Source of the DNA: a virus
Lineage: Duplodnaviria > Heunggongvirae > Uroviricota > Caudoviricetes
Length of the DNA: 25,642 bases
IMG/VR virus record: IMGVR_UViG_2541047502_000029
Strand: one strand, 5' to 3'
In this document: piece by piece, positions 18,401 to 21,400 of the stretch
Layout of the letters: each line of letters begins with the position of its first letter
How positions within the stretch are numbered: position 1 is the first letter of the stretch
Made by a program: the position numbers

Positions 18401-21400
18401 ATTGAACGCCATTGTGCGAGCGACAAGACAAAGACTGAACCGCCCCGGACCTCTTTTGGCTAGCCAGAAAAGGCCTCGTTTAACTAAGGCTGTTTCAGAC
18501 TTACCTTAACTATTCACTACTATTCACTTAGGTAAAAAAAATAGGTAATACAGAAGGTTATAAGGTGAAGGGTTGGCATGGCAGTATTCATCGACTGTTC
18601 ATAACTGTTCACATGGGAATAAAATTATTTATGGTATTTTTTCATAATGGGTGGTTTTTTTATTCCTCGTAGCTATTTGTTTTTTGCTCCTCACCACTAT
18701 TCACCCTTATTCAGGAGTATTCAACAGGCACATAAATAGACTGCATGTTTTTGCCGGGGAATAACATTTTCGCCTCTGGCCATGGTGTTGCATTTCATAC
18801 TGATTTTTATAAAACTAGATCTGTCCGGTTCTTTATGGATTCATTCGGATATATTTTACGATTTAAGGTGATGTTATTTAATATCAAGGTTTTTATGCAG
18901 GCCCAATGTTTATAAGTTGGATGCGATTCAAAAATATGCCCGGAAATTGGGGCCTGCAATGCAAGGCCTCGTGTAGAAGTTGTACTGCCTTGCTGTATTG
19001 GCGGTGGGGTTAGCACTATCAGGTGCAATGACCCATAGGATAGTAAACCCTGGGTGAATGGTAGTTCCTATTAATGCTCCTGTATTTATAGTCCGCAGGC
19101 ATGGTATTTATTATGTCATTTTATATGGTTTAATCGGGCTTTAAATTCCATAAAATCAATATGTGACGCTAAATAAAAAATGCGTGCGCAGGTGGTTTAT
19201 ATACACATAATAAGGAACTACCTGAACCCGGATAAATTCATCCGGACTGTTGTGGAAATTAAAGAGGGTAGATAAATGCGTAATATTTCTGTGTCTGCGC
19301 CAGCTCCTGCTGCGCCATTATTTCCTGTATCGAACCATCATGAGCGATTTTTACGCCTGCCTGAGGTGATGCACTTATGCGGGTTGTCCCGTTCGACCGT
19401 TTACGACCTGATCAGCCGCGATGCGTTTCCGAAGCAGATCCCGCTTGGCGGTAAAAATGTCGCCTGGGCACAGTCTGAGGTCAGCGCATGGATGGCGGAC
19501 CGCATCAGCGCCCGTGGGCGGGGATGTGATGCATGATGATACCTGCATACATTAAATACCTTTATTCTGGCTTGCTTACTGTCGTCATTTCCAGGTATAG
19601 TTTTTCCGCTGTCGCAAAATCGGCAGCCGGAATTGGCGTTCCGTATAACTTATTGGCGACAATTGACGCCCCTTGCGTCTTTTTTTACGTCGTAGCTCAG
19701 GCACAACCATTTTCAGGGCTGTGGTGTTTATGCTTACACCATGGTTCTATCGAGATAATGGTAGTCCGGGCGGGGCAGCCTTCGGGCTGGCCGGTTTCCA
19801 ATAAGGCCGGTTACGCCAACCCCGTTCGGGCTGCCACCAGTGAAATTGGCGTTTCCGGTGGTAGCAATAACCGCTACTTATTGGAGGCTGCCATCATGGC
19901 TACAATCCTCACCCCGTCACACCCGCAATATGTCTTTGTGTTTGCCGCAATCCGCCGTGCTGACACTCACCCCCGCATCTGTATGCTTCGCACTGTCTCC
20001 TGCGATGAGCGTTCCGCGCGCCGTTTGCTAGCCCGAGATTATGTACTCTCCCTTTCTGCACGGCTGCCTGCCGGGGAGGTGACGCTATGAACCAGTTTGA
20101 GATTTCCTACGACGATGTTGTAAGGCTGAAACATTTACGCAATGTGGGTGAGTATGTAACTGGCATGGCAGCCCTGCAGGACTGTTATGAAAAGCCAGCA
20201 GGTGCCCAATGCGAACAACTGGTTTCCCTCATTTATCTGATGACAGAGCAACTGGATGGAGTGGTGCAACGCTGCCATGACGACCTGATGAATGCGGAGG
20301 TGGCCTGATGATATGCTGTGAATCTCTTCTGGCACTTCGTGCCGCTCTGTATCGCCGTGCCGTTGCCTGTGCCTGGCTGGCTCTAAGCAATCATCAGGAA
20401 CGTTATTCCGGCCTGACGCTCGCTGAACTTGAAGATGCCATAGCCCGCGAGCTGGAAGGGTTCTATCTGCGCCAGCATGGGCAGCAAAGAGGGCTGGAAA
20501 TTGCCTGCGCGTTGCTTTCGGATCTGATGGAGTCGGGGCCGCTTAAAGCCTGTCCGGTTCTCTCACTGCTCGGAATGACGGTCATGGATGAACTTTGTTC
20601 CCGTCACCTCAACAAACCAGCGCTGCACTAAGGAGGGCCGCACAATGTCAGGAATGAAAGTTAGCCAGGCTGAGAAAGCAGCTCGGGGTCACTGGTCAAG
20701 AATTTTACCTGCGCTGGGCGTAAATGTACTGAAAAATCGGCACCAGCCCTGCCCGGTCTGTGCCGGGAAAGACCGCTTTCGATTTGATGACCAGGAAGGG
20801 CGGGGAACGTGGTTCTGTAACCAGTGCGGGGCAGGTGATGGCCTGGCGCTTGTAAGTAAAGTACTGGATGTAGGCATTAGTGAAGCGGCAGACAGAATAA
20901 ACGGCATTATCGGAAACCTGCTGCCAGTATCTCAGGGAATGCTTGAATCTGGTTCTCCTGAAAAAGAGGACGGGAGAAAAGCTGCAGCAGTGCTGGCTGC
21001 CCGTTTGTTTGATAAGTCCCGCCAGACCACTGGCAATGCCTATCTGACGAGTAAAGGGTTTCCTGCACTGCCTTGCCGGGAATTAACCGCTATGCATAAA
21101 GTCGGTGGTGTGGCATTTCGCGCGGGAGATCTTGTCGTTCCATTGTATGCAGATGGAGAGCTGGTAAATCTGCAGTTAATCAACGCTAATGGGGGCAAAT
21201 GCTTCCTTAAAGGCGGTCAGGTTAAGAATGCCTTTTACCTGGTTGAAGGTACTGCCAAAGCAGCCAAACGGCTCTGGATAGCGGAAGGATATGCCACCGC
21301 ACTTACTATCAACTATCTGACTGGCGATGCTGTCATGGTGGCCTTTTCGTCCGTCAATTTCCTTTCCCTGGCGAGCATTGCCTGCAGTGAGTACCCAACG

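What the first reader, a model, noticed from the sequence alone, without database searches (positions are those of the whole stretch)
19630..19900. P4/P1-type antisense-RNA immunity module: structured RNA with complementary seqA/seqC targets, a terminator and an occluded RBS
The sequence CCAATAAGGCCGGTTACGCCAA (19798-19819) is complementary in both arms to TTGGCGT...CTTATTGG at 19633-19656 and again at 19846-19884. The first target is followed by a hairpin plus T7 terminator (19665-19686); the second overlaps the SD of the downstream 64-codon gene. This is the organisation known for P4 CI RNA and P1 C4 RNA immunity. It also argues that the 185-codon ORF in the track (19533-20090) is mostly non-coding RNA.
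Basis: partly seen in the sequence, partly recalled or inferred. Interest (0 to 1): 0.6.

Follow-up and report, generated by a model that had tools for sequence, protein, structure and literature searches.

The report
P4-type antisense-RNA immunity module
This is the well-known RNA "immunity" switch of a P4-like satellite prophage found in E. coli O157:H7 genomes, in which a small processed RNA pairs with two matching sites on its own transcript to keep the satellite's replication genes off; it is real and complete but ordinary, and the long ORF over it is a genuine second use of the same DNA, not an annotation error.

Summary
Rfam C4 hits 19754-19841 (84 bits, cutoff 45). Rfam isrK hits 19608-19685 (71.9 bits, cutoff 50), which covers seqA plus the terminator. 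Phage P4 gives the same hits at homologous positions, at about 69% DNA identity.

The two arms of the small RNA are the loop UCCAAUAAG and the junction ACGCCAA. Both have exact complements upstream (seqA) and downstream (seqC). The seqC copy abuts the GGAGG Shine-Dalgarno of a 64-aa Kil/Icd-like gene.

In 59 aligned leaders from many genera, all four arm-target helices are 98-100% paired, and 25 of 31 pairs show compensatory changes. The intrinsic terminator after seqA is present in 54 of 55 distinct leaders.

The 185-codon ORF is the homolog of P4 eta, which is translated from an upstream late promoter. Its frame is open in 92% of leaders, against about 2% expected by chance, and leader length differences are in phase in 54 of 59 leaders.

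So this is dual-use DNA in a known system with a non-P4 specificity. Side observations: a conserved alternative helix, and coordinated three-site specificity switches between near-identical leaders.

The parts
19276..19536 (+). vis/alpA-like gene (86 aa). Its stop codon overlaps the start of the eta-like ORF.
   Evidence: ORF list. Pfam Phage_AlpA, 70 bits. Homologous to P4 ORF88/vis.
19533..20090 (+). eta-like ORF (185 codons) that contains the whole RNA module. The 64-codon kil/icd-like gene is nested in its 3' end in the same frame.
   Evidence: ATGA overlap with the vis stop. Frame open in 92% of leaders and length classes in phase. P4 eta is described in PMC10111431.
19572..19601 (+). PLE-like constitutive promoter inside eta: TTGCTT, 18-nt spacer, TATAGT. 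The start site is inferred at about 19608.
   Evidence: Aligns with P4 TTGCCT...TATAGT. The isrK model starts 7 nt after the -10 box. The generic sigma-70 scan did not call it because the -35 box matches only 3 of 6.
19608..19686 (+). Leader, or IsrK-like 'seqA RNA': hairpin 19608-19627, then hairpin 19628-19643 with the b-target in its loop, then the single-stranded a-target, then the terminator.
   Evidence: Rfam isrK, 71.9 bits against a cutoff of 50. c4-a1b1, 44.6 bits against a cutoff of 46.7. Hairpins are 99.5% and 100% paired.
19633..19656 (+). seqA: b-target UUGGCGU at 19633-19639 and a-target CUUAUUGG at 19649-19656.
   Evidence: Exact complements of the C4 arms. seqA:seqB helices are 100% and 99.8% paired, and 12 of 15 pairs are compensatory.
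19665..19686 (+). t1-type intrinsic terminator: GACGC/GCGUC stem plus U7.
   Evidence: Terminator scan. A hairpin plus T-run is present in 54 of 55 distinct leaders. The stem is 100% paired, with one CG/GC swap at 33:26.
19718..19745 (+). Conserved hairpin between the terminator and C4. Its role is unknown.
   Evidence: 93.5% paired, and 4 of 6 pairs are compensatory.
19754..19841 (+). C4/CI-type antisense RNA. Closing stem 19759-19775/19820-19836, hairpin 19776-19789, hairpin 19790-19811, 3' CCA at 19837-19839. The predicted mature RNA is about 80 nt.
   Evidence: Rfam C4, 84 bits. The MFE structure equals the Rfam structure, z = -4.9. The closing stem is 99.9% paired.
19797..19819 (+). seqB specificity arms: loop arm UCCAAUAAG at 19797-19805 and junction arm ACGCCAA at 19813-19819.
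   Evidence: There are 28 loop-arm variants, 12 junction-arm variants and 38 combinations among 66 loci.
19830..19865 (+). Alternative helix. The C4 3' strand plus CC (19830-19838) pairs with GGUGGUAGC (19857-19865), and the seqC b-target lies in the 18-nt loop. It is mutually exclusive with the C4 closing stem.
   Evidence: 99.2% paired, with 3 compensatory pairs. It is 8 bp or longer in 82% of 83 distinct loci and covaries in Ralstonia, phage 2H10 and P4.
19846..19887 (+). seqC: b-target UUGGCGU at 19846-19852 and a-target CUUAUUGGA at 19877-19885, overlapping the Shine-Dalgarno GGAGG at 19883-19887.
   Evidence: seqC:seqB helices are 100% and 97.7% paired, and 13 of 16 pairs are compensatory. 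The loop-arm duplex extends over the SD at -12.7 kcal/mol.
19896..20090 (+). kil/icd-like gene (64 aa), the first gene translated from the constitutive transcript.
   Evidence: NCBIfam NF033153 phage_ICD_like, 67.6 bits. Aligns with the P4 65-aa kil frame.
20087..22978 (+). Downstream genes that the module controls: a 73-aa ORF, a DUF5375 gene (P4 orf106 homolog) and the alpha-type primase-helicase.
19162..19179 (+). Tentative late-promoter (PLL-type) activator box upstream of vis: TGT-N12-AAA, one mismatch from TGT-N12-ACA.
   Evidence: It lies at the same distance from the vis ATG as the exact box in P4 (about 105 versus 111 nt). No exact match is present.

Best explanation
This is the immunity region of a P4-like satellite prophage and it works like P4's.

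1. A constitutive promoter inside the eta ORF (about 19572-19601) starts a leader RNA at about 19608.
2. Some transcripts stop at the intrinsic terminator (19665-19686). This gives an IsrK-like RNA of about 78 nt that carries seqA.
3. Read-through transcripts contain the C4/CI RNA (19754-19841). It is cut out as a stable RNA of about 80 nt ending in CCA.
4. The small RNA exposes two arms: the loop arm UCCAAUAAG and the junction arm ACGCCAA.
5. The arms pair with seqA on new transcripts. In P4 this favours termination at the leader terminator and so limits the small RNA's own synthesis.
6. The arms also pair with seqC, covering the Shine-Dalgarno of kil. Untranslated RNA then terminates before the alpha replication genes, so the prophage stays quiescent and is immune to elements with the same arm pair.
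7. When a late promoter upstream of vis fires, ribosomes coupled from vis translate eta straight through seqA, the terminator, C4 and seqC. That makes the long transcript insensitive to immunity.

Shown here from sequence: every RNA element, homology to P4, covariation of all the pairings, and conservation of the terminator and of the eta frame.

Inferred from P4 and not shown here: promoter activity, processing, termination and immunity itself.
For: - Rfam C4 scores 84 bits and isrK 71.9 bits in the window. P4 itself gives the same hits in the same order.
- DNA homology to P4 runs from vis through cI/eta and orf106 to alpha, at 69%.
- The prophage context is int, delta, psu, sid, vis, Icd-like, DUF5375 and primase.
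- Arm-target covariation: seqA:seqB and seqC:seqB helices are 97.7-100% paired, and 25 of 31 pairs are compensatory. Slid-register controls are 32-51% paired. All four matched targets are present in 79% of loci, against 0.16% for mismatched arms.
- The terminator is conserved in 54 of 55 leaders.
- The SD is overlapped by the a-target.
- The kil product is Icd-like.
- The eta frame is conserved.
- Literature: P4-like prophages use IsrK and C4 homologs, called seqA and CI (PMC3632133). IsrK is a structural homolog of seqA, and CI acts on seqA and seqC (PMC4825925). The eta/kil logic is summarised in PMC10111431.
Against: - There are no expression data for this locus.
- The generic promoter scan did not call the PLE-like promoter, because its -35 box matches only 3 of 6.
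- Equilibrium folding already gives the terminator hairpin 96% probability without the small RNA. The claimed CI-dependence of termination therefore rests on P4 experiments plus a weak kinetic argument: a competing GGCG/CGCC hairpin on the nascent RNA.
- The late-promoter box upstream of vis is imperfect.
- In Gifsy-1, the homologous IsrK RNA acts in trans as an activator, so the seqA RNA here may have an additional or different role.
Confidence: 0.88

Rival explanations
1. Gifsy-1 IsrK-type logic. The terminated seqA RNA (19608-19686) acts mainly in trans as an anti-antisense activator or decoy. It would pair with the C4 region or titrate the C4 RNA, open the message, and switch on translation of the downstream gene, rather than serving mainly as a termination target. 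This is not exclusive with the P4 model.
For: - The isrK model hits above its cutoff.
- In Gifsy-1, IsrK expressed in trans raises anrP translation about 140-fold through the upstream ORF that overlaps the C4-like RNA.
- RNAalifold predicts cis pairing of seqA with seqB, equivalent to the Gifsy-1 'structure A'.
- TraDIS data indicate that the IsrK-like element is needed in P4-like prophages of S. Typhi.
Against: - The closest homolog is P4, not Gifsy-1. In P4, seqA is a target for termination.
- The downstream genes here are kil and alpha, not an antirepressor.
- The terminator sits immediately after the a-target in 54 of 55 leaders, which fits control of termination.
Confidence: 0.3
2. The region is simply protein-coding. 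It would encode an 'Ash' or 'cI repressor'-type protein, or an Icd-like protein of 185 aa, as annotated. The RNA-family hits and complementarities would be by-products of a conserved protein sequence.
For: - RefSeq annotates one 185-aa CDS and no ncRNA here.
- Pfam Phage_ASH (104.5 bits) and several PHROG 'transcriptional repressor' families match the translation.
- The frame is conserved.
Against: - Compensatory base-pair changes occur in stems and in all four arm-target helices, with almost no broken pairs. Protein constraint does not predict this.
- The arm codons change amino acids freely while base pairing is kept.
- An intrinsic terminator sits inside the ORF.
- P4 genetics assigns immunity to the RNA.
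Confidence: 0.02
3. The module is an inactive relic in a decaying cryptic prophage. The parts are recognisable but are no longer expressed or functional.
For: Neighbouring genes in the element are frameshifted in RefSeq: an ABC-3C component and a hypothetical gene downstream of alpha.
Against: - All parts are intact, and all four arm-target matches are perfect.
- The kil, eta and alpha ORFs are open.
- The region is at least 99% identical in 307 E. coli records.
- The same arm pair, with intact targets, occurs in Phytobacter, Kosakonia and Kluyvera.
Confidence: 0.07

Closest known systems
Phage P4 immunity region (PLE, seqA, t1, cI/CI RNA, seqC, nested kil/eta, alpha)
   Same: The order of all parts is the same and there is direct DNA homology at about 69%. 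The Rfam hits are the same. The terminator sits after seqA, the SD is overlapped by seqC, the kil gene is 64 versus 65 aa, eta starts at an ATGA overlap with vis, and DUF5375 and alpha lie downstream.
   Different: Both specificity arms differ at all three sites. P4 has CCUGUGAAG and UUCUCAC; the window has CCAAUAAGG and ACGCCAA. The element is therefore predicted to be heteroimmune to P4. The leader is 39 nt shorter between the terminator and C4 (288 versus 327 nt). The genes between kil and orf106 differ: a 73-aa ORF replaces epsilon and orf151.
Phage P1/P7 immI region (c4 RNA, a/b targets, icd, ant)
   Same: Same Rfam family and clan. The antisense RNA has two arms, is processed from the transcript it controls, and has targets upstream (a1b1) and downstream at the ribosome-binding site of an Icd-like gene. 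The mechanism is summarised in PMC12197685.
   Different: The genes controlled downstream are replication genes (alpha), not an antirepressor. The c4-a1b1 model scores just below its cutoff (44.6 versus 46.7 bits).
Salmonella Gifsy-1 isrK-orf45(STnc1160)-anrP locus, and the homologous ant regions of Stx and lambdoid phages
   Same: An IsrK-type leader with a Rho-independent terminator is followed by a C4-type RNA inside a same-strand ORF. The literature already calls IsrK a structural homolog of P4 seqA.
   Different: In Gifsy-1 the short RNA activates translation in trans and the cargo is an antirepressor. The Stx1a and Stx2a phage arms (CCGUUGACG with UGCGAA or UGCAAA) differ from the window's in both arms, and phage 2H10 shares only the junction arm.

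Membership tests
Rfam RF01695 C4 antisense RNA | Covariance-model score at or above the gathering cutoff over the full model | tested here: met
   84 bits against a cutoff of 45, model positions 1-87 of 87, window 19754-19841.
Rfam RF01695 C4 antisense RNA | A long closing stem enclosing two hairpins, with base pairs supported by covariation | tested here: met
   The MFE structure equals the model structure. The closing stem is 99.9% paired, with 2 compensatory and 7 one-sided changes. The hairpin stems are invariant in my set because the search pattern fixed them.
Rfam RF01695 C4 antisense RNA | tRNA-like maturation: RNase P cut at the 5' end and a 3' CCA | not testable with these tools
   A CCA follows the closing stem at 19837-19839. 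That P1 C4 and P4 CI are processed by RNase P is from my own knowledge and was not tested here.
P4-type immunity (CI RNA with seqA and seqC) | Two-part complementarity of the small RNA to one site upstream and one site downstream on the same transcript | tested here: met
   Exact 7-9 nt matches at four sites, with covariation in 59 leaders.
P4-type immunity (CI RNA with seqA and seqC) | Rho-independent terminator between seqA and the small-RNA gene (t1 in P4) | tested here: met
   Window 19665-19686, conserved in 54 of 55 leaders including P4. The name t1 and its CI-dependence are from my own knowledge of Briani et al. 2000, a paper not held in the library.
P4-type immunity (CI RNA with seqA and seqC) | The downstream target overlaps the translation start of kil, the first translated gene | tested here: met
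   The a-target at 19877-19885 overlaps GGAGG at 19883-19887, and the ATG is at 19896. The kil product is Icd-like.
P4-type immunity (CI RNA with seqA and seqC) | Nested eta ORF that starts upstream of the constitutive promoter and is coupled to vis/alpA | tested here: met
   ATGA overlap at 19533-19536. The frame is open in 92% of leaders, and 54 of 59 leader lengths are in phase. P4 is described.
P4-type immunity (CI RNA with seqA and seqC) | Constitutive promoter (PLE) directly upstream of seqA | tested here: inconclusive
   TTGCTT-18-TATAGT aligns with the P4 sequence, but the consensus scan did not call it. Its activity was not tested.
P4-type immunity (CI RNA with seqA and seqC) | Premature termination and superinfection immunity that depend on the small RNA | not testable with these tools
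   This needs transcription and infection assays.
Rfam RF01394 isrK | Covariance-model score at or above the gathering cutoff | tested here: met
   71.9 bits against a cutoff of 50, window 19608-19685.
Rfam RF03163 c4-a1b1 | Covariance-model score at or above the gathering cutoff | tested here: not met
   44.6 bits against a cutoff of 46.7, at 19595-19647. P4 itself scores 44.1.
P1/P7 immI operon (c4-icd-ant) | An antirepressor gene downstream of icd, under C4 control | tested here: not met
   The downstream genes are a 73-aa ORF, DUF5375 and an alpha-type primase-helicase. No ant gene is present.

The most novel reading that the evidence does not exclude
The conserved alternative helix (C4 3' strand plus CC at 19830-19838 pairing with 19857-19865, with the seqC b-target in its loop) may be a functional conformational switch that is not part of the Rfam C4 or isrK models. 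By competing with the C4 closing stem on unprocessed transcripts, it could decide whether the small RNA is matured or the message stays intact. It could also be the structural basis of the atypical terminator downstream of cI reported for P4. Together with the coordinated three-site arm switches seen between near-identical leaders, this would make the module a tunable immunity code under diversifying selection.
Probability: 0.3. Interest if true: 0.4.

Novelty: already known. Interest (0 to 1): 0.15.

Why it matters
The result mainly helps annotation.
- In E. coli O157:H7-type genomes this locus is labelled as a single 185-aa 'Icd-like' protein with no RNA genes.
- Protein-family databases call its translation a 'transcriptional repressor'.
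- In fact it holds a complete RNA immunity switch, two nested genes (eta and kil), an internal promoter and a terminator.

Getting this right predicts which satellites and phages are cross-immune. The arm pair CCAAUAAGG plus ACGCCAA differs from P4 and from the Stx phage C4 RNAs I checked. The biology itself is established.

Tried and rejected
- **Generic sigma-70 scan.** It did not call the PLE-like promoter, so the promoter assignment rests on alignment to P4.
- **tRNA scan.** It found nothing in the window, so no tRNA attachment site could be used.
- **P4 primary papers.** PMC176756 and PMC94026 are not held. Details about t1, t4, timm and RNase P processing are from my own memory and are marked as such.
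- **Is Pfam Phage_ASH a spurious family built on translated non-coding RNA?** Revised. The frame is conserved and P4 eta is translated. The family models a real but probably sequence-unconstrained ORF segment. Only the 'repressor' naming is a legacy error.
- **Does occupying the seqA arms favour the terminator thermodynamically?** Uninformative. The hairpin is already 96% formed. Only a kinetic competitor hairpin (GGCG 19655-19658 with CGCC 19667-19670) could be proposed.
- **Cross-talk with co-resident Stx phages.** Rejected for the Stx1a and Stx2a phages examined, because both arms differ.
- **Local seqC hairpin (19861-19865 with 19873-19877).** Only 72.5% paired, so it is weaker than the alternative helix.
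- **Outer helix CGAC/GUCG around the terminator.** It is 93% paired with no compensatory change in the 59-leader alignment. It covaries only in more distant loci, so it was left as a side note.
- **Exact TGT-N12-ACA box upstream of vis.** Absent. There is a one-mismatch candidate.
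Full report
**Observation.**
- CCAATAAGGCCGGTTACGCCAA lies at 19798-19819.
- Both halves have exact complements upstream: TTGGCGT at 19633-19639 and CTTATTGG at 19649-19656.
- They also have exact complements downstream: TTGGCGT at 19846-19852 and CTTATTGGA at 19877-19885.
- The first target is followed by GACGC-CCCTT-GCGTC plus seven T (19665-19686). This is the only terminator-like site the scan found in 19200-20700.
- The second target runs into GGAGG (19883-19887), 8 nt before the ATG at 19896 of a 64-codon gene that ends at 20090.
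- By chance this is very unlikely. None of 20,000 shuffles of the window's flanks gave both two-part targets.

**Identity.**
- Rfam C4 (RF01695) matches 19754-19841 end to end at 84 bits, against a cutoff of 45. Rfam isrK (RF01394) matches 19608-19685 at 71.9 bits, against a cutoff of 50. The 'a1, b1 targets of C4' model scores 44.6 bits, just under its 46.7 cutoff.
- The 88-nt stretch folds into the model's structure at -50.8 kcal/mol, z = -4.9.
- The region is homologous at about 69% DNA identity to phage P4, from vis (ORF88) through the old 'cI' ORF to orf106 and alpha. P4 gives the same three Rfam hits in the same order.
- The window matches a P4-like prophage of E. coli O157:H7-type genomes at 99.9%. 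That prophage carries integrase, defence cargo, delta, psu, a sid-like gene, vis, an 'Icd-like' CDS, DUF5375 and a primase-helicase.
- RefSeq annotates no RNA gene there.

**Related sequences.**
- A core pattern that excludes the arms retrieved 120 loci, one genome per species.
- Among 66 usable loci there are 28 loop-arm variants and 12 junction-arm variants, in 38 combinations.
- 79% of loci carry complements of 7 nt or longer to both of their own arms, both upstream and downstream, at fixed offsets. The figure is 0.16% when arms are borrowed from loci of other specificity.
- I aligned 59 leaders and counted pairs for named structures. The seqA:seqB helices are 100% and 99.8% paired. The seqC:seqB helices are 100% and 97.7% paired. 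25 of the 31 pairs show changes on both sides. Slid registers give only 32-51% pairing.
- RNAalifold found the seqA:seqB pairing unprompted.
- The terminator (hairpin plus T-run) follows the a-target in 54 of 55 distinct leaders.
Both are therefore clearly not met. The third criterion, detection of the small RNA, could not be tested here.

**The long ORF.** Testing this changed my own first impression.
- Pfam Phage_ASH matches residues 22-132, which is exactly the promoter, seqA, terminator, C4 and seqC DNA. The 64-aa C-terminal part alone has no Pfam hit, but it does match NCBIfam phage_ICD_like.
- The frame in phase with the 64-codon gene is open through the whole leader in about 85% of loci.
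- In the 59-leader alignment, 92% have no in-frame stop. The other two frames are open in 0% and 14%, and about 2% is expected from composition.
- Leader lengths fall into classes of 279, 282, 285, 288, 300 and 327 nt, all in phase in 54 of 59 sequences.
- Where the junction arm is 1 nt shorter, the spacer downstream is 2 nt shorter.
- The ORF's ATG overlaps the vis stop codon as ATGA in the window, in P4 and in many relatives.
- The literature explains this. P4 eta contains the constitutive promoter, seqA and CI. Kil is its truncated form. [quoted passage not shown] 1999).
- The ORF is therefore real, and the DNA has two uses.

**Mechanism.** What the sequence shows directly is the anatomy and its conservation.
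- How it works is inferred from P4. The constitutive transcript either stops at the leader terminator or reads through and is processed to the C4/CI RNA.
- That RNA pairs with seqA and seqC. In P4 this causes premature termination, so the replication genes stay off (PMC4825925 and PMC3632133).
- From my own knowledge of Briani et al. 2000, which I could not check with the tools: the terminator after seqA is P4's t1, its efficiency depends on CI and seqA, and it serves CI autoregulation. The main block lies downstream of cI (t4, and Rho-dependent timm).
- Folding could not test that dependence. The terminator hairpin is already 96% formed at equilibrium. The only support is a transient competing hairpin (GGCG 19655-19658 with CGCC 19667-19670) that overlaps the end of the a-target.
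- The loop arm can pair with the seqC a-target and continue over the SD with G-U pairs, at -12.7 kcal/mol.
- The late half of the circuit looks conserved but is tentative. Two exact TGT-N12-ACA boxes lie upstream of the sid-like gene at P4's Psid spacing. A one-mismatch box lies upstream of vis at P4's PLL distance.

**Comparison with known systems.**
- The system is P4's, but with a different specificity. P4 uses CCUGUGAAG and UUCUCAC, while the window uses CCAAUAAGG and ACGCCAA, changed coherently at all three sites.
- It shares the C4 family and the Icd-like first gene with P1/P7, but it controls replication genes rather than an antirepressor.
- It shares the IsrK-type leader with Gifsy-1 and with Stx and lambdoid phages. 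The Stx1a and Stx2a phage C4 arms I examined differ from the window's in both arms, so I expect no cross-talk with them.
- An Rfam-based annotation of O157:H7 EDL933 already lists C4 and isrK loci inside same-strand genes (PMC5331693). I did not verify that one of them is this locus.

**Novelty and score.** The module is a complete, typical member of a well-studied system, so interest is low. Three side results may be worth a specialist's look:
- A conserved, covarying alternative helix between the C4 3' strand and the seqC region.
- Specificity switches by 2+2+2 coordinated substitutions on nearly identical backbones.
- The mislabelling of this region in protein-family and genome annotation.

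Noticed in passing
window 19830-19838 with 19857-19865: A conserved alternative helix. The 3' strand of the C4 closing stem plus CC pairs with GGUGGUAGC downstream, which puts the seqC b-target in a 16-22 nt loop. It is 99.2% paired in 59 leaders. It covaries in distant lineages: AGGCCCGCC/GGCGGGCCU in Ralstonia, UUCACCACC/GGUGGUGAA in phage 2H10, and GCUAUCGCC/GGCGAUAGC in P4. In P4 the closing stem tolerates G-U pairs while this helix keeps Watson-Crick pairs. It is not part of the Rfam C4 or isrK models, and I could not find it in the papers held.
   Followed up: yes
alignment A1; P4 (L001) vs L060, L028 vs L072, L066 vs L067 and L114: Specificity switches on near-identical backbones. For example, P4 and L060 differ at 4 of about 285 backbone positions, but by 2+2+2 coordinated substitutions at the three b-sites. 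The a and b sites are interleaved along the DNA (b-a ... a-b ... b-a), so a single crossover cannot reassort them. This points to diversifying selection with compensatory change at three sites.
   Followed up: partly
window 19596-19929 (residues 22-132 of ORF 19533-20090): Pfam PF10554 Phage_ASH and several PHROG families labelled 'transcriptional repressor/regulator' match the translation of the promoter, seqA, terminator, C4 and seqC DNA. RefSeq names the whole 185-aa ORF 'Icd-like' and annotates no ncRNA. The 'repressor' label looks like a legacy of the old P4 'cI protein' annotation. The Icd-like part is only the last 64 aa.
   Followed up: yes
window 19657-19660 with 19689-19692: A short outer helix (CGAC...GUCG) brackets the terminator hairpin and its U-run. 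It is invariant or 93% paired among close relatives, but it covaries in distant loci (CGGA/UCCG, GGCAC/GUGCC, GCAC/GUGC). It can form only on read-through transcripts.
   Followed up: partly
window 19718-19745: A hairpin between the terminator and C4 has compensatory changes in 4 of 6 pairs (93.5% paired). Its role is unknown. P4-type leaders carry a 45-nt in-phase insertion here.
   Followed up: partly
L123 599-787, L124 599-787, L125 564-752 (Stx1a and Stx2a phages, phage 2H10): Lambdoid and Stx phages carry the same isrK-plus-C4 pair inside a long same-strand CDS annotated 'antirepressor Ant' or 'regulatory protein'. The nested ORF-over-RNA arrangement is therefore not limited to P4-like satellites.
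   Followed up: partly
window 18509-18526, 18594-18611, 18686-18713: Pairs of iteron-like repeats spaced 10 nt apart (CTATTCAC, TGTTCA, TTATTCA) lie in the sid-vis intergenic region. They resemble P4's ori type 1 repeats (TGTTCACC) but with a variant sequence. This is probably the element's origin, with a diverged alpha-binding specificity.
   Followed up: partly
window 18375-18392 and 18413-18430; also 19162-19179: Two exact TGT-N12-ACA dyads lie 33-88 nt upstream of the sid-like gene (minus strand, ATG at 18342), at the same spacing as in P4 Psid. A one-mismatch copy lies about 105 nt upstream of vis, where P4 has an exact one. A homologous CCGGA...UCCGG hairpin lies in the vis 5' UTR (19228-19245).
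   Followed up: partly
window about 13080-15590 (from RefSeq annotation of the 99.9% identical locus L002): Between the integrase and the P4 core genes the element carries an ABC-three-component (ABC-3C) system with one frameshifted gene, plus an AAA ATPase. This looks like anti-phage defence cargo in the satellite's variable region.
   Followed up: no
window about 7250-8540 (from L002 annotation): Upstream of the satellite lie tail-fibre assembly genes and a pinE-type invertase from another prophage remnant. No tRNA gene is present anywhere in the window, so the satellite is not integrated next to a tRNA within this stretch.
   Followed up: no
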